The notes under the pieces were generated by a model. That model made no database searches. It was not told the DNA's origin and worked only from the letters and a program-made list of their open reading frames with translations. From a virus (lineage: Duplodnaviria; Heunggongvirae; Uroviricota; Caudoviricetes), in IMG/VR virus record IMGVR_UViG_2874915312_000001: DNA of 13,872 bases; one strand, 5' to 3'. The translations under genes were made by a program, and so were the position numbers. Positions 9,592 to 12,233 of this stretch are shown here, piece after piece (the stretch's first letter is position 1; every line of letters begins with the position of its first letter).

Positions 9592-10500
9592 TCAGAATGT
9601 CAGTTTGTCACTGGATTTACCGAATTTGTCAGACATGGCTCCCAGGCCAGCCAGGACATCGACCTGTCGCTGTCGCCCACCTCCGGGAGCGGCTGGCTGT
9701 TGCCAGAAGTCTTCGAAGTGACGATCGGGTCCAAAGAACGTCGCAGCCTGCTTCACGAACTGTGTGCCGGTATTTCCTGTGGCACGTACCCAGGCAGCAT
9801 AGCGTTTCACGCCATCAAGCATGGCTTCAGGTTTTATTCCCTCCCTGAGCCGGGCTTTCCAGGCTTTGAAGGCTGCGGATTTTGAGTTACCACCAGCACG
9901 TTTTGGATATTCCTGCCAGGCCTGTTCAAATTCCGGTGAATATTCCTGTCGGGAAGAACGCGCTGGTGCAGACGCGTCAGCGGATGCGCCAATAGTGTTT
10001 TTACTCTCTGTAGTATTCTCTGAAGTAATCTCTGTTGTATTCTCTGTAAGATCGAAATTGGTTTTCCCTTCTCCGCGGCGAGGGGTTTCCCGTGTCCGCG
10101 GTGAAGGCTTTCCCTCCTCCGCGAAATTGGGTTTTACAGTTTCCCGAAAACGGGTTTCCCCATTTCGGGAAAACTGATTGTTTTCATTGATAATTTCATT
10201 AAGGCGCTCACAATCTATACGGTAGAACATTTTGTGCTCAAGACGCTTGTTGGTTTCAACCAAAATGCCTCTGGACACAAGATGCTTACGCGCTACAGCC
10301 TGTTGTTCAAATGTAAGTCCGGTTTCGTGTTGTATCTCTTCACGCGTTTTATGTACGCCTTCCGCTGCATGTGCTTTATCCTGCCAGTAAAAAATCTGAC
10401 CAAAGAAAATAACAGCGTGCGGACTTCCCATGTATTTAACGAGCCCAGGGTAATAAGCAACCGGATGTCCAAAATCGAGCAGAAGATCAGACGGACGCAT
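9592..10500 (-). CDS. replication initiator, O-like replisome organizer
   Basis: Sits directly upstream of the loader and helicase genes. It has a low-complexity linker (…PRTRETPRRGEGKTNFDLTENTTEITSENTTESKNT…) encoded by iteron-like DNA repeats, as in lambda O. ATG at 10500 with a GGGAGG ribosome-binding site. Confidence 0.65.
   Translation of the reverse strand: MRPSDLLLDFGHPVAYYPGLVKYMGSPHAVIFFGQIFYWQDKAHAAEGVHKTREEIQHETGLTFEQQAVARKHLVSRGILVETNKRLEHKMFYRIDCERLNEIINENNQFSRNGETRFRETVKPNFAEEGKPSPRTRETPRRGEGKTNFDLTENTTEITSENTTESKNTIGASADASAPARSSRQEYSPEFEQAWQEYPKRAGGNSKSAAFKAWKARLREGIKPEAMLDGVKRYAAWVRATGNTGTQFVKQAATFFGPDRHFEDFWQQPAAPGGGRQRQVDVLAGLGAMSDKFGKSSDKLTF
10005..10215. repeat. iteron array plus AT-rich tract inside the O-like gene = probable phage origin of replication
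   Basis: Three ~12-bp repeats (GTAGTATTCTCTG / AAGTAATCTCTG / TTGTATTCTCTG) at 10009-10046. Five GGTTT(T)CCC-containing repeats with ~22-24 bp spacing at ~10061-10170. An AT-rich stretch follows at 10180-10215. Confidence 0.5.
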
Positions 10501-10720
10501 AGCCACCTCCCAGGCGTTTAAACATTTTTCCGGACTGAAACGCCACCAGCGGATAACTCAGGGTATGAGTACGTCCCTGAACCTGGCAGACAACCTTCTG
10601 GCTTTCGGTACTGACCAGGCAAACCCGCAGAACGTAGCCGTTGCTGGTGGTGAACCACTGCCCCACACGGGGGCAATGGTTGTATCGGTGATACAGGAAA
10701 TTAACGATGTGGCGGATCAT
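10487..10720 (-). CDS. hypothetical 77-aa protein (position where a cII-like gene is usually found)
   Basis: ORF MIRHIVNFLYHRYNHCPRVGQWFTTSNGYVLRVCLVSTESQKVVCQVQG..., with an AGGAGG ribosome-binding site. Its start overlaps the stop of the Rha gene (ATGA) and its stop overlaps the O start. No family recognised. Confidence 0.45.
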   Translation of the reverse strand: MIRHIVNFLYHRYNHCPRVGQWFTTSNGYVLRVCLVSTESQKVVCQVQGRTHTLSYPLVAFQSGKMFKRLGGGYASV

Positions 10721-11577
10721 GGGCGCACCTCCTTGTCAGAACCATTCAGCCTGGAATCAACAAGTGCAGCACCAAAAACAGCATCACCTACACGGTCGTA
10801 CAGTTTGCCAGCCAGCGGAGATTCAACGGCCTTAAGCATTGGGTAAAGCTGGCTTGTCCAGATTTGATGGATTTCACGCAAATGCAGGTATACGCCTCTG
10901 GCGTTTTGTGCGACAGATGACATGTCAGCCGCACCAGCTCCTGATAAGCTCCTCTCCATCTGGTTAAAGGCATTGATGTATGCCTCTTTGAACCGGGCGG
11001 CACGTTTACCAGTGAAGCCCATAGCAAGGAAGGCGAAGCCGTCGCGGGTGATTTGGTAGCAGGGAAGTTTGCGAGTACCGCCGTTGGGCTGGCGTACCAA
11101 AATTGATGTCTCCGCAAAATTGCGGGCACAAAACTCTGGAGAACAATCCAAAATGCGGATCTTTTTCAGAACATCGTCATGACGTTTAGAGAAGAAGTTG
11201 GCAACAGCCAGGGATGAAGTAACAGCCTGACCATCAACGATGGCAATTTCAGGTTGAGAGAGGGTTGGGAGAGTAGTCATGGTGACAGCCCCTATGTTGA
11301 ATTCAAAGAACTCACCACATGGGACGCCAATCACAGAGGTGGTGAGACGTACAGGGTTGGCGTAACCGGTCAACATAGAACCCGGCGCATCTTGCGATGC
11401 CCCTGCACGCCCCACCATAATTTGGGCGTAGCAATGCTCATGACACGAAAAAACCGCATGAGCGCGGTTATGCTCTATATTGAATTTCAGGACGCCAATC
11501 CCGGCACCCGCTTTATAAGGTGCAGAGACAGTGTAACGTCCCGGAATTGCAGAATCAATATTCAGGTAGCGGATCAT
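10717..11577 (-). CDS. Rha-family phage regulatory protein with a ~99-aa N-terminal extension
   Basis: The core from MTTLPTLSQPEIAIVDGQAVTSSLAVANFFSKRHDDVLKKIRIL...ITRDGFAFLAMGFTGKRAARFKEAYINAFNQME is Rha-like (Phage_pRha). The ORF is open upstream to an ATG at 11577 (MIRYLNIDSAIPGRYTVSAPYKAGAGI...) with a GGGAGGTG ribosome-binding site. An alternative internal start lies at 11280. Confidence 0.7.
   Translation of the reverse strand: MIRYLNIDSAIPGRYTVSAPYKAGAGIGVLKFNIEHNRAHAVFSCHEHCYAQIMVGRAGASQDAPGSMLTGYANPVRLTTSVIGVPCGEFFEFNIGAVTMTTLPTLSQPEIAIVDGQAVTSSLAVANFFSKRHDDVLKKIRILDCSPEFCARNFAETSILVRQPNGGTRKLPCYQITRDGFAFLAMGFTGKRAARFKEAYINAFNQMERSLSGAGAADMSSVAQNARGVYLHLREIHQIWTSQLYPMLKAVESPLAGKLYDRVGDAVFGAALVDSRLNGSDKEVRP
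11497..11561. repeat. 65-bp direct repeat, copy A (second copy at 12153-12217, 1 mismatch)
   Basis: AATCCCGGCACCCGCTTTATAAGGTGCAGAGACAGTGTAACGTCCCG(G/A)AATTGCAGAATCAATAT is present at both sites. It encodes the start of the N-terminal extension (IDSAI.GRYTVSAPYKAGAGI). Confidence 0.6.
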
Positions 11578-11936
11578 AGGTGCACCTCCCGTTGATGACG
11601 ACGGAAAGCGGAATGCACCTGGACGGTTTCAGCCTCATGGAACGCTTCAATGCAACTCTCGTAGTACCGCATTGTGCGCAGACTTAACCCAAGCTGAAGC
11701 AGCATCAGACCATCAAGGGTGATGTAATAACCACGCAGAGAGTCGTCATAGATGTGGTAAGTACCCGGTATGAAATTGCGGGTAAAAAATTCGTGCGAGC
11801 AGTTCAGATACTCGATTTTGTCGACGATGTTCTGGTGCATGCGCTTAAAGTGGCAGGCCACATGCAAAGAGAAAATAACGGCCTTGCCGTTGACGGTCTC
11901 AATTTTGAGGAATGAGTGGGTTGGGACTGTAGCCAT
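11574..11936 (-). CDS. Rha-family phage regulatory protein (short paralog)
   Basis: MATVPTHSFLKIETVNGKAVIFSLHVACHFKRMHQNIVDKIEYL...YITLDGLMLLQLGLSLRTMRYYESCIEAFHEAE is Rha-like; GGAGG lies 10 nt upstream of the ATG at 11936. The frame stays open upstream to ~12220, encoding a start-less copy of the N-terminal extension. Confidence 0.6.
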   Translation of the reverse strand: MATVPTHSFLKIETVNGKAVIFSLHVACHFKRMHQNIVDKIEYLNCSHEFFTRNFIPGTYHIYDDSLRGYYITLDGLMLLQLGLSLRTMRYYESCIEAFHEAETVQVHSAFRRHQREVHL

Positions 11937-12152
11937 GATGGCAGCCTCCGTTGACTGTGGAAAACTTCCACCACCGGAGGTGCAAATCTCGCTGGTGGCG
12001 GACTGAACAGGGTTTGCACTACCGGCGTCAACGGAGACCGGCGAGCCTTTCGGCTCCCCTGCCCAGCCCACCATAATTCTGGCGTGCGTGAGCGCGGACG
12101 ATAAAAAAGACGCTGGCGCGTCGTATATCGCCGTTGACAATTCCGGGGTGCA

Positions 12153-12217
12153 AATCCCGGCACCCGCTTTATAAGGTGCAGAGACAGTGTAACGTCCCGA
12201 AATTGCAGAATCAATAT
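12153..12217. repeat. 65-bp direct repeat, copy B
   Basis: See copy A. Similarity ends at 12217, exactly where the plus-strand toxin-antitoxin cassette begins. Confidence 0.6.
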
Positions 12218-12233
12218 ATTGTGCAGATATAAC
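12203..12233 (+). promoter_or_regulatory. candidate promoter/operator of the toxin-antitoxin cassette
   Basis: TTGCAG (12203-12208) and TATAAC (12228-12233) as possible -35/-10 elements, with a 10-bp palindrome CAATATATTG (12212-12221) between them. By eye only. Confidence 0.3.

What the first reader, a model, noticed from the sequence alone, without database searches (positions are those of the whole stretch)
10487..12220. Tandem Rha-family genes with a repeated N-terminal extension and a recurring stop/start junction motif
Three consecutive minus-strand genes are chained by the same junction: ...GGAGGTGCRCCYATGATCCGC, where the TGA stop of one gene overlaps the ATG of the next and the new protein starts MIR. 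Two of them carry a ~95-aa segment (IDSAI.GRYTVSAPYKAGAGI ... IMVG.AG ...) fused in frame upstream of a canonical Rha start (MTTLPT / MATVPT), with 65 bp of it near-identical at DNA level. I do not recognise this extension or the 77-aa protein. The module occupies the place where the cro/cII early-regulatory genes normally sit upstream of O.
Basis: seen in the sequence. Interest (0 to 1): 0.55.

Follow-up and report, generated by a model that had tools for sequence, protein, structure and literature searches.

The report
Phage immunity RNAs nested in Rha genes
The unrecognised "N-terminal extension" repeated before two Rha genes is a known phage RNA switch: a promoter, the IsrK/seqA small RNA and the C4/CI antisense RNA, all lying inside a reading frame that is kept open, as in satellite phage P4, so the finding is real but ordinary.

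Summary
Two minus-strand Rha genes each carry an in-frame ~95-99 codon upstream stretch, a 79-nt 92% DNA repeat, and an exact SD/stop/start junction that occurs twice (none expected by chance).

The extension is not an unknown protein domain. Each copy contains an internal promoter-like site, an IsrK/seqA-type sRNA with an intrinsic terminator (Rfam RF01394, ~62 bits), and a C4/CI-type antisense RNA (RF01695, 80 bits). The C4 loop and junction are complementary to sites in IsrK and over the rha ribosome-binding site. Across 56 related leaders these pairings covary (92-98% paired; slid controls 34-48%). The window's two modules carry different specificities.

The translated extension matches Pfam Phage_ASH. 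That family also matches P4's obsolete "cI protein" ORF, which overlies the P4 CI RNA.

The frame is nevertheless kept open and in phase. This matches the published P4 eta/kil nested-gene arrangement, where translation from an upstream promoter prevents termination. Gifsy-1 isrK-orf45-anrP is the closest lambdoid precedent. RefSeq already annotates identical ORFs.

Unexpected extra: the first long frame stays stop-free for 506 codons, including across an antisense toxin-antitoxin cassette.

The parts
12186..12214 (-). Module 1 internal promoter-like site: -35 TTGATT (12214-12209), 17-nt spacer, -10 TACACT (12191-12186). The predicted start is G at 12179.
   Evidence: Read from the sequence. 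It lies in the 79-nt repeat and is conserved in all 79 unique related leaders. It matches only 8 of 12 consensus positions, so the consensus scan did not list it. The start site is inferred from position 1 of the Rfam isrK model.
12103..12179 (-). Module 1 IsrK/seqA-type sRNA. It carries the upstream 'a' site (TTTGCAC) and 'b' site (GTCAACGGCGA), and ends in an intrinsic terminator (stem 12109-12122 plus a T run).
   Evidence: Rfam RF01394, 61.8 bits against a gathering score of 50. Terminator-like site. Covariation with C4.
11991..12078 (-). Module 1 C4/CI-type antisense RNA. Loop 2 is UCUCCGUUGACG (b') and the 3' junction is GUGCAAA (a').
   Evidence: Rfam RF01695, 80.1 bits against 45. Stems covary across 56 leaders at 99.9-100% paired.
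11945..11986 (-). Module 1 downstream target region. Site a2 is TTTGCAC (11986-11980). Site b2 is GTCAACGGAGG (11955-11945) and covers the GGAGG Shine-Dalgarno of rha1.
   Evidence: Complementarity read from the sequence. The cognate C4 pairs 7 of 7 positions at a2 and 10 of 11 at b2. Covariation of b2 with C4 loop 2: 94% paired.
11574..11936 (-). rha1, a short Rha-like gene of 120 aa, starting MATVPT.
   Evidence: Pfam Phage_pRha 28.9 bits, just under the 29.9 cut-off. TIGR02681 40.8 against 45.95. The same 120-122 aa form recurs in many loci.
11574..13094 (-). Long read-through ORF 1, 506 codons from the ATG at 13094. That ATG lies 2 nt after the stop of the upstream gene. The ORF crosses the DUF4222 gene in another frame, runs antisense through the HTH and RelE/Gp49 genes, then crosses promoter 1, IsrK1 and C4-1, and ends as rha1.
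   Evidence: Over 12219-13094 it has 0 stops, against 19 and 13 in the other two frames. Synonymous resampling of the sense genes gives P(0 stops) = 0.002. It is kept open in L244, L245 and L246, which differ at 73-110 of 876 positions.
11569..11589 (-). Junction 1: SD GGAGG, then an ATG (11577-11575) overlapping the TGA of rha1. This is the start of long ORF 2 (MIRYLN...).
11530..11558 (-). Module 2 internal promoter-like site (TTGATT-N17-TACACT). The predicted start is at 11523.
   Evidence: Same repeat copy as module 1, 656 nt downstream.
11447..11523 (-). Module 2 IsrK/seqA-type sRNA with 'a' site TTGGCGT and 'b' site TCAATATAGAG. Its terminator stem is at 11452-11469 followed by a T run.
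   Evidence: Rfam RF01394, 61.9 bits. Terminator-like site.
11335..11422 (-). Module 2 C4/CI-type antisense RNA. Loop 2 is GUUCUAUGUUGA and the junction is ACGCCAA.
   Evidence: Rfam RF01695, 80.1 bits.
11290..11330 (-). Module 2 downstream targets. Site a2 is TTGGCGT (11330-11324). Site b2 is TCAACATAGGG (11300-11290) and covers the AGGGG ribosome-binding site of rha2.
   Evidence: The cognate C4 pairs 7 of 7 and 11 of 11 positions. C4 of the other module pairs only 6 of 7 positions at the 'a' sites and 7-8 of 11 at the 'b' sites.
10717..11280 (-). rha2, a 187-aa Rha-family regulator or antirepressor-like gene. It is the first gene translatable from the internal-promoter transcript, the position that kil holds in P4.
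   Evidence: Pfam Phage_pRha 94.6 bits. TIGR02681 91.2 bits.
10717..11577 (-). Long ORF 2, 286 aa, the 'Ash-Rha' form. This is the position of eta in P4.
   Evidence: A 286-aa ORF at the matching place in E. coli O121 (99.9% identical DNA) is annotated WP_001300485.1 in RefSeq. PHROG 821, E = 1.5e-157.
10712..10732 (-). Junction 2: SD GGAGG, then an ATG (10720-10718) overlapping the TGA of rha2. This is the start of the 77-aa ORF.
10487..10720 (-). 77-aa ORF (MIRHIVN...) of unknown function. Its last 14 nt overlap the start of the O-like replication gene (ATG at 10500, SD at 10510-10506).
   Evidence: PHROG 1153, E = 9.7e-43, unknown function. Weak DUF4222 match, E = 0.015. RefSeq annotates a 77-aa hypothetical protein (WP_000618005.1) at the matching place in E. 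coli O121.

Best explanation
The region holds two tandem copies of a P4/P1-type RNA immunity cassette placed in front of Rha-family genes, in the early operon of a lambdoid prophage upstream of the O-like replication gene.

Each cassette has four parts:
- an internal promoter-like site;
- an IsrK/seqA-type 77-nt RNA ending in an intrinsic terminator;
- a C4/CI-type ~88-nt antisense RNA;
- a short target region that overlaps the rha ribosome-binding site.

Shown from sequence: the C4 loop (b') and 3' junction (a') are complementary both to a/b sites inside IsrK and to a2/b2 sites just upstream of the rha start. The two cassettes carry different a/b alleles.

Inferred from P1 c4 and P4 CI precedents: transcripts from the internal promoter mostly stop at the IsrK terminator. 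Read-through supplies C4, which pairs with a2/b2, blocks rha translation and favours premature termination. Rha therefore stays off in the lysogen. IsrK carries the same a/b sequences as the rha leader, so it can compete for C4.

Shown: the whole cassette lies inside a reading frame that is kept stop-free, is in phase with rha, and starts at or next to the stop codon of the preceding gene.

Inferred from the P4 eta/kil precedent: when transcription arrives from upstream (the early promoter after induction), ribosomes translate straight through the promoter, IsrK, C4 and rha. This prevents terminator and antisense action and lets transcription continue to the 77-aa ORF and the O/P-type replication genes. 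The amino-acid sequence of the 'extension' is a by-product of the RNA genes.
For: **RNA genes present**
- Rfam hits above gathering score for both RNAs in both modules. The same is true in every module of three related loci and at the experimentally defined seqA/CI region of P4.
- Intrinsic terminator-like sites sit at both IsrK 3' ends.

**Pairing covaries across 56 unique leaders**
- IsrK a-site with C4 junction: 98.2% paired, 6 of 7 pairs changed on both sides.
- IsrK b-site with C4 loop 2: 91.7% paired, 8 of 12 changed on both sides.
- C4 loop 2 with the SD-proximal site: 94.0% paired, 7 of 12 changed on both sides.
- Slid controls give 34-48% paired, and 0 of 500 shuffles reach the observed score.
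- There are 6 a-alleles and 12 b-alleles in 23 combinations. Cognate pairing is 7/7 at both 'a' sites in both of the window's modules and 10-11/11 at the 'b' sites. Cross-module pairing is 4-6/7 and 7-9/11.

**Frame conservation**
- The rha ATG lies at +240, +243 or +246 from IsrK +1, and four indel events all preserve the frame.
- 0 of 415 distinct frame-0 codon variants are stops, against 21 of 401 and 22 of 411 in the other frames.
- In 48 unique C4 loci from many genera, the downstream gene's frame is open at least 200 nt upstream in 29 of 39 cases, against 12 of 78 for other frames.
- The first ATG of the long ORF overlaps or abuts the upstream stop in nearly all contexts.
- There is no codon-position periodicity in the leader, unlike in rha.

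**Literature**
- P4 eta/kil and CI/seqA as summarised in PMC10111431.
- The IsrK-C4 system in lambdoid Salmonella prophages, PMC3632133.
- Gifsy-1 isrK-orf45-anrP, with the processed ~80-nt STnc1160, PMC4825925.
Against: - There are no expression data for this locus. The promoter, processing, termination and translation steps are all inferred.
- The promoter matches only 8 of 12 consensus positions and was not listed by the scan.
- In Gifsy-1 the tested activity was IsrK acting in trans as an activator of orf45/anrP translation. Constitutive STnc1160 (the C4-like RNA) did not block IsrK-induced growth arrest. C4 as the repressor is therefore not demonstrated in a lambdoid context.
- In Gifsy-1, orf45 is a separate ORF ending in AUGA, not fused to anrP.
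- This prophage is defective. An IS3-family element truncates the upstream gene and the DnaB-like gene carries an in-frame stop. The upstream-transcript route may therefore no longer operate here.
- The leaders sampled were chosen by an exact 21-nt match, so they are closely related and the counts are not fully independent.
Confidence: 0.85

Rival explanations
1. The ~95-aa segment is a genuine folded protein domain (the 'Ash' domain of the Bro/Rha network) that works as part of a long Rha protein. On this view the RNA-family matches are incidental.
For: - Pfam Phage_ASH matches at 44-49 bits.
- PHROG 821 and 995 cover the long form end to end.
- PGAP annotates 'ash family protein'.
- The frame is conserved.
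Against: - Phage_ASH also matches the obsolete P4 'cI protein' ORF exactly where the P4 CI RNA lies.
- Variation in the leader has no third-position excess.
- The variable positions change as compensatory RNA pairs across three sites. These swaps replace runs of codons wholesale.
- The same open frame continues through unrelated antisense cassettes, which cannot encode a conserved domain.
Confidence: 0.05
2. The extension is simply an untranslated leader, and the open in-phase frame is a chance by-product of G+C-rich, conserved RNA sequence.
For: - The P4 leader from PLE is described as untranslated.
- The sampled leaders are closely related, so absence of stops is partly inherited.
- In diverse loci, 45 of 78 non-gene frames are also open across C4 itself.
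Against: - 0 of 415 frame-0 codon variants are stops, against 43 of 812 in the other frames.
- All four indel events are frame-preserving.
- The long ORF's start codon is coupled to the upstream stop in nearly every context.
- The frame stays open across two unrelated antisense TA cassettes, with resampling P of about 0.002 each.
- In P4, nonsense mutations in eta cause termination (this detail is from my recollection of Forti et al. 1999, PMID 10464191, which is not held in the library; one search states only that Eta translation prevents termination).
Confidence: 0.07
3. The tandem arrangement is a recent, functionless duplication in a decaying prophage.
For: - The prophage is defective, with IS insertions and a nonsense codon in the DnaB-like gene.
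- A 79-nt repeat at 92% identity suggests recombination between copies.
Against: - The two copies differ precisely at the a and b specificity sites in all three places, and they precede different Rha genes.
- Arrays with 656-nt spacing recur in many independent contigs, including triple arrays in L017 and E. coli O121.
Confidence: 0.03

Closest known systems
Satellite phage P4 immunity region (PLE - seqA - cI RNA - seqC - kil, all nested in the eta ORF)
   Same: - The order is the same: an internal constitutive promoter, a seqA/IsrK element, the CI/C4 RNA, then a downstream target at the first translated gene.
- Both RNA families hit P4 at the expected places.
- A long ORF starts upstream of the internal promoter, is coupled to the preceding gene, and ends as the first gene.
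- The same Pfam Phage_ASH match is found.
   Different: - The nested terminal gene here is a Rha-family regulator rather than kil.
- The host element is a lambdoid prophage early operon upstream of O/P, not the P4 alpha operon.
- Two cassettes with different specificities lie in tandem.
- The first long ORF also runs through an antisense toxin-antitoxin cassette.
Salmonella Gifsy-1 isrK-orf45-anrP locus (Hershko-Shalev et al. 2016, PMC4825925)
   Same: - It is a lambdoid prophage.
- IsrK has a leaky terminator.
- A processed ~80-nt RNA (STnc1160) overlaps the ORF between isrK and the antirepressor gene.
- IsrK is complementary to that region.
- That paper already notes that in S. dysenteriae orf45 is fused to anrP, giving 287 aa.
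   Different: - In Gifsy-1, orf45 is a separate 45-codon ORF whose stop overlaps the anrP start (AUGA). Here the frame is fused.
- Homology of Rha2 to AnrP was not tested here.
- Gifsy-1 has a single cassette.
Phage P1/P7 immI operon (c4 antisense RNA - icd - ant)
   Same: - The Rfam C4 family is shared.
- The antisense loops pair with two sets of flanking targets, and the downstream set covers a ribosome-binding site.
- Allelic a/b differences would define heteroimmunity, as in P1 versus P7. The P1/P7 point is from my own knowledge of Citron and Schuster 1990 and Biere et al. 1992, which I did not read here.
   Different: - There is no icd gene between C4 and the controlled gene.
- The controlled gene is Rha-type rather than P1 Ant.
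- The upstream target lies in a terminated IsrK-type sRNA.
Pfam PF10554 Phage_ASH / PGAP 'ash family protein'
   Same: Both extensions match above the cut-off. RefSeq annotates the ORFs at the matching places in a 99.9% identical E. coli O121 locus as ash family or Rha family proteins.
   Different: The family models the translation of an RNA-gene region. It is not P4 epsilon, which matches PF25738. One paper used PF10554 as epsilon.

Membership tests
Rfam RF01695 C4 antisense RNA (P1 c4 / P4 CI) | Covariance-model score at or above the gathering score over the full model. | tested here: met
   80.1 bits against 45, model positions 1-87, for both copies.
Rfam RF01695 C4 antisense RNA (P1 c4 / P4 CI) | A long closing stem plus two hairpins, supported by compensatory changes. 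| tested here: met
   Outer stem 99.9% paired with 4 pairs changed on both sides. Hairpin 1 is 100% paired with 4 of 5 changed on both sides. Hairpin 2 is invariant.
Rfam RF01695 C4 antisense RNA (P1 c4 / P4 CI) | Exposed loop and junction complementary to target sites both upstream and downstream, with the downstream site at a ribosome-binding site. | tested here: met
   b2 covers GGAGG (module 1) and AGGGG (module 2), 8-10 nt before the ATG.
Rfam RF01695 C4 antisense RNA (P1 c4 / P4 CI) | Excised from a longer transcript by RNase P or PNPase, and represses in trans. | not testable with these tools
   Needs RNA work. The UGG...CCA ends are conserved, which is only suggestive.
Rfam RF01394 isrK (P4 seqA-type) | Score at or above the gathering score, with a 3' intrinsic terminator. 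| tested here: met
   61.8 and 61.9 bits against 50. Terminator-like sites at 12109-12122 and 11452-11469, each with a T run.
Rfam RF01394 isrK (P4 seqA-type) | Its own promoter immediately upstream. | tested here: inconclusive
   TTGATT-N17-TACACT is conserved in all related leaders, but it matches only 8 of 12 consensus positions and the scan did not list it. There is no transcript-start data.
P4 eta/kil nested-gene architecture | A long ORF that begins upstream of the internal promoter, spans the seqA and CI RNA genes, and ends as the first gene translated from the internal promoter. | tested here: met
   ORFs 10717-11577 and 11574-13094. The same arrangement is seen in P4, where a frame is open 399 nt upstream and 252 nt downstream of the C4 end.
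P4 eta/kil nested-gene architecture | The long ORF is translationally coupled to the preceding gene. | tested here: met
   ATGA overlap at 11577-11574. For ORF 1 the pattern is stop-CG-ATG at 13099-13092. The pattern holds in nearly all related contexts.
P4 eta/kil nested-gene architecture | Translation of the long ORF prevents transcription termination. | not testable with these tools
   Only indirect support: the frame is kept stop-free.
Pfam PF09669 Phage_pRha / TIGR02681 | Domain score at or above the curated cut-off. | tested here: met
   Rha2: 94.6 against 29.9, and 91.2 against 45.95.
Pfam PF09669 Phage_pRha / TIGR02681 | Domain score at or above the curated cut-off (Rha1). | tested here: not met
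   Rha1: 28.9 against 29.9, and 40.8 against 45.95. The E-values (1.7e-6 and 1.9e-10) indicate a divergent short relative.
Gifsy-1 isrK-orf45-anrP | A separate short ORF (orf45) over the C4-like RNA whose stop overlaps the antirepressor start. | tested here: not met
   Here the frame from the conserved AUG in the C4 5' stem (+105) is fused in phase with rha (+243).
Gifsy-1 isrK-orf45-anrP | The controlled gene is an AnrP homologue. | not tested
   No AnrP sequence was compared. A Salmonella phage 'putative antirepressor' is 64.5% identical to Rha2.
P1/P7 immI | An icd ORF between c4 and ant. | tested here: not met
   Only 54-55 nt separate C4 from the rha ATG.

The most novel reading that the evidence does not exclude
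Selection keeps one unbroken, translationally coupled reading frame from the gene upstream of the cassettes all the way to the replication genes. It does so even where toxin-antitoxin cargo has been inserted on the opposite strand. The synonymous codons of those cargo genes would then be constrained so as not to create antisense stop codons.

The 500-730 codon 'proteins' that result would have no function as proteins. Their translation would be the function: it would shield early-promoter transcripts from the embedded terminators, from the antisense RNAs and from Rho.

This would extend the P4 eta principle to lambdoid early operons and to antisense cargo. It would also explain why tandem cassettes of different specificity can be stacked without polarity.
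Probability: 0.45. Interest if true: 0.6.

Novelty: new member of a known kind. Interest (0 to 1): 0.35.

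Why it matters
For annotation, 'Ash' and 'Ash-Rha' proteins in Stx phages, other lambdoid prophages, P4-like satellites and PICIs mark an RNA-based immunity switch, not an uncharacterised protein domain. Papers that treat PF10554 as a protein of unknown function, or as P4 epsilon, should be read with that in mind.

For biology, the 6 x 12 allele set of antisense and target sites, and the tandem stacking of cassettes, point to a combinatorial specificity code. That code would control Rha/antirepressor expression, and so prophage induction, in pathogenic E. 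coli and Shigella prophages.

The stop-free frame across antisense toxin-antitoxin cargo, if selected, would be a clear case of translation being used only to protect a transcript.

Tried and rejected
- **RNAduplex on whole C4 versus targets.** It gave long, uninterpretable duplexes because it unfolds C4. I replaced it with site-wise complementarity counts and covariation counts.
- **Consensus promoter scan.** It did not list the conserved TTGATT-N17-TACACT, so the promoter remains an inference.
- **Generic C4 pattern scan of genome contigs.** It returned many chance hits in high-G+C genomes. I kept only hits with at least 15 of 17 closing-stem pairs.
- **a2 site in the alignment.** It could not be scored by column because two allele classes carry a 3-nt insertion that shifts register. 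I scored it per sequence instead.
- **L033 long ORF.** It looked like a third independent cassette but is an in-frame fusion of the upstream Ant-like gene to the module, so I did not count it.
- **Original P4 papers (PMC176756, PMC94026).** They are not held in the library. The eta/kil facts come from the summary in PMC10111431 and from my own recollection of Forti et al. 1999.
- **77-aa ORF.** Pfam and NCBIfam gave nothing above threshold.
- **Ash equals P4 epsilon.** I considered this because one paper states it. I rejected it because epsilon matches PF25738, whereas PF10554 matches the ORF over the CI RNA.

Full report
**1. The observation**

On the minus strand the window has three chained ORFs: 11574-13148 (containing a Rha start, MATVPT, at 11936), 10717-11577 (286 aa, with an internal Rha start, MTTLPT, at 11280), and 10487-10720 (77 aa).

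The motif GGAGGTGCRCCYATGATCCGC occurs exactly twice, at 11569-11589 and 10712-10732. Each time the ATG overlaps the preceding TGA. None is expected by chance.

A 79-nt stretch is repeated at 92% identity, 656 nt apart. Rha2 is a clear Phage_pRha protein (94.6 bits). Rha1 is a short, sub-threshold relative (28.9 against 29.9 bits). So the description is accurate.

**2. What the extension is**

A scan of the window with Rfam gives, inside each extension, two hits:
- a full-length C4 antisense RNA: RF01695, 80.1 bits against 45, at 11335-11422 and 11991-12078;
- a full-length isrK RNA: RF01394, ~62 bits against 50, at 11447-11523 and 12103-12179.

Each IsrK copy ends in a hairpin plus T run. Each is preceded, inside the 79-nt repeat, by TTGATT-N17-TACACT, placed so that transcription would start at model position 1. 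This promoter is an inference. The consensus scan did not list it.

**3. Antisense logic**

C4 loop 2 and the single-stranded junction 3' of hairpin 2 are complementary to two places. One is a pair of sites inside IsrK. The other is a pair just downstream of C4, the second of which covers the rha Shine-Dalgarno sequence.
- Module 1: CUCCGUUGAC pairs with GTCAACGGAG, and GUGCAAA pairs with TTTGCAC.
- Module 2: CUAUGUUGA pairs with TCAACATAG, and ACGCCAA pairs with TTGGCGT.

I fetched related DNA by an exact 21-nt match to the IsrK 5' hairpin and aligned 56 unique leaders.

| Pairing | Cells paired | Pairs changed on both sides |
|---|---|---|
| IsrK a-site with C4 junction | 98.2% | 6 of 7 |
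| IsrK b-site with C4 loop 2 | 91.7% | 8 of 12 |
| C4 loop 2 with SD-proximal site | 94.0% | 7 of 12 |

Partners slid by 1-3 columns give 34-48% paired, and no shuffle reaches the observed covariation score.

There are 6 a-alleles and 12 b-alleles in 23 combinations. The window's two modules have different alleles. Each pairs fully with its own 'a' sites (7/7) and almost fully with its own 'b' sites (10-11 of 11). Each pairs poorly with the other module's sites (4-6/7 and 7-9/11).

This is the logic known for P1/P7 c4 and P4 CI. The P1/P7 details are from my own knowledge.

**4. Why the translated extension matches a protein family**

The translated extensions match Pfam PF10554 Phage_ASH (44-49 bits). 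In the P4 genome record that family matches the obsolete 137-aa "cI gene product" ORF at residues 22-85. This is exactly over the CI RNA gene, which Rfam C4 finds at 8420-8507, with seqA/IsrK at 8615-8692. P4 epsilon matches a different family, PF25738.

So Phage_ASH models the translation of an RNA-gene region. Two papers treat it differently: one as a domain of unknown function in Stx phage Rha proteins (PMC8951638), and one as epsilon (PMC8628076).

**5. The frame is nevertheless conserved**

In 79 unique leaders the first-gene ATG lies at +240, +243 or +246 from IsrK +1. Four separate indel events all keep the frame, including a 1-nt plus 2-nt pair.

None of 415 distinct frame-0 codon variants is a stop. 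In the other frames, 21 of 401 and 22 of 411 are stops.

A structure-filtered set of 48 unique C4 loci from many genera (Erwinia, Serratia, Aeromonas, Pseudomonas, Photorhabdus and others) shows the same pattern. The downstream gene's frame is open at least 200 nt upstream in 29 of 39 cases, against 12 of 78 for other frames.

The long ORF's first ATG overlaps or abuts the stop of the preceding gene in nearly every context.

Variability in the leader shows no third-position excess (0.615/0.616/0.581), unlike rha itself (0.557/0.481/0.806). So what is conserved is translatability, not an amino-acid sequence.

**6. The known explanation**

In P4, eta is a long ORF that starts upstream of the constitutive promoter PLE and spans PLE, seqA and cI. 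Its terminal part, kil, is the first gene translated from PLE transcripts. Full eta is translated only from the upstream late promoter and is coupled to the preceding gene. Its translation prevents termination (Forti et al. 1999, as summarised in PMC10111431).

That paper also lists Phage_ASH and Phage_pRha among 'Bro network' domains and notes that Rfam C4 and isrK detect CI and seqA relatives inside such genes.

Barquist et al. 2013 noted IsrK-C4 systems in lambdoid Salmonella prophages.

Hershko-Shalev et al. 2016 dissected Gifsy-1 isrK-orf45-anrP. orf45 overlaps a processed ~80-nt RNA, and they remarked that in S. dysenteriae orf45 is fused to anrP, giving 287 aa.

RefSeq annotates the ORFs at the matching places in a 99.9% identical stretch of E. 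coli O121 as ash family or Rha family proteins. There, three cassettes are chained by 4-nt overlaps. The finding is therefore a member of a known kind.

**7. Mechanism, and what is shown versus inferred**

Shown from sequence and comparison:
- the RNA genes, the terminator-like sites and the cognate complementarity;
- the difference in specificity between the two modules;
- the conserved open frame and its start codons coupled to upstream stops.

Inferred from P1, P4 and Gifsy-1:
- internal-promoter transcripts give IsrK and, by read-through and processing, C4;
- C4 pairing at a2/b2 blocks rha translation and promotes termination;
- IsrK competes for C4;
- transcripts from the early promoter are translated through the cassette and so escape this control, reaching the 77-aa ORF and the O-like gene. 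The O-like gene's ATG at 10500 overlaps the end of the 77-aa ORF.

Caveat: in Gifsy-1 the demonstrated activity is activation by IsrK in trans, and constitutive C4-like RNA did not block it.

**8. Beyond the finding**

The first long frame has its first ATG at 13094, 2 nt after the stop of the upstream gene. From there it runs 506 codons. It crosses a DUF4222 gene in another frame and runs antisense through a Gp49/RelE-type toxin gene (12219-12584) and its HTH partner (12574-12882).

Over 12219-13094 it has 0 stops, against 19 and 13 in the other frames. Resampling synonymous codons of the sense genes gives P(0 stops) = 0.002.

An unrelated TumE/HVO_A0114 cassette in the same position in L074 is spanned in the same way: 0 stops against 20 and 11, P = 0.0017.

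Copies differing at 73-110 of 876 positions keep the frame open. One copy, with a further ~450-nt A+T-rich insert, has a 731-codon frame.

I could not find this described. It fits an extension of the eta principle, but it needs experimental test.

**9. Context**

The window is a degraded prophage next to the 3' part of mlrA, carrying IS3-family and IS66-family elements. An IS3-family OrfA starting at 13570 truncates the upstream Ant/Rha-type gene. The DnaB-like gene carries an in-frame stop. The upstream-transcript route may therefore be inactive in this particular host.

Noticed in passing
window 12219-13094 (minus-strand frame); also L074:10428-11340, L244, L245, L246: The long frame in phase with rha1 stays stop-free while running antisense through a RelE/Gp49-HTH toxin-antitoxin pair and across a DUF4222 gene: 0 stops against 19 and 13 in the other frames, resampling P = 0.002. 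An unrelated TumE/HVO_A0114 cassette in L074 is spanned the same way (P = 0.0017). Diverged copies keep the frame open, for up to 731 codons in L246.
   Followed up: partly
L122 (phage P4 NC_001609) 8168-8584 and 7888-8175: Pfam PF10554 Phage_ASH matches the obsolete P4 'cI gene product' ORF over the CI RNA gene, not epsilon, which matches PF25738. A published census of P4-like elements used PF10554 as the epsilon marker.
   Followed up: yes
window 12219-12584 (+) and 12574-12882 (+): A Gp49/RelE-ParE-type toxin gene and an HTH_3 antitoxin-like gene lie on the opposite strand, exactly between the DUF4222 gene and the module 1 promoter. Most related prophages lack this insert, and homology to them resumes at ATATTGATTCTGC.
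   Followed up: partly
window 12904-13077 (-) and 10487-10720 (-): Small DUF4222-type ORFs flank the cassettes. The 57-aa ORF is a clear DUF4222 (E = 2.7e-14; PHROG 1343). The 77-aa ORF is a weak relative (Pfam E = 0.015; PHROG 1153). The 57-aa ORF also hits PHROG 1153 weakly.
   Followed up: partly
window 13097-13531 (-) and 13570-13872 (+): The upstream Ant/Rha-type gene is cut to 144 codons, against about 236-257 in relatives. Next to it is an IS3-family transposase OrfA (HTH_Tnp_1, E = 1.5e-20) that runs off the window end.
   Followed up: partly
window 7315-8706 (-): The DnaB-like replicative helicase gene is split into 134-aa and 327-aa ORFs. The two together span 1392 nt, the length of the intact gene in E. 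coli O121. This points to an in-frame stop at about 8302-8304.
   Followed up: no
window 1-534 (-), 832-2036 (+), 2790-5429 (+), 6010-6317 (-): Other features in the window: the 3' part of mlrA (MerR/MlrA domains), an IS3-family integrase-core ORF, a complete IS66-family set (HTH, TnpB_IS66, DDE_Tnp_IS66), and four tRNA genes. Together these suggest a decayed prophage at an mlrA (yehV)-type site.
   Followed up: no
L005, L007, L008, L014 and others (from +243 of the leader): The gene controlled by the cassette is interchangeable. It can be a long Rha (181-187 aa), a short Rha-like gene (120-122 aa), or an unrelated 58-77 aa ORF (MATVPALTRLNDEDLHKLSYV...). All share the first ~5 codons, MAT(V/I)P, so the recombination boundary lies just inside the coding region.
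   Followed up: no
L017:9652-11209, L243:1829-4001, L004, L012, L038, L085, L119: Arrays of two or three cassettes with 656-nt spacing recur in independent contigs. Each copy in an array carries a different a/b allele combination.
   Followed up: partly
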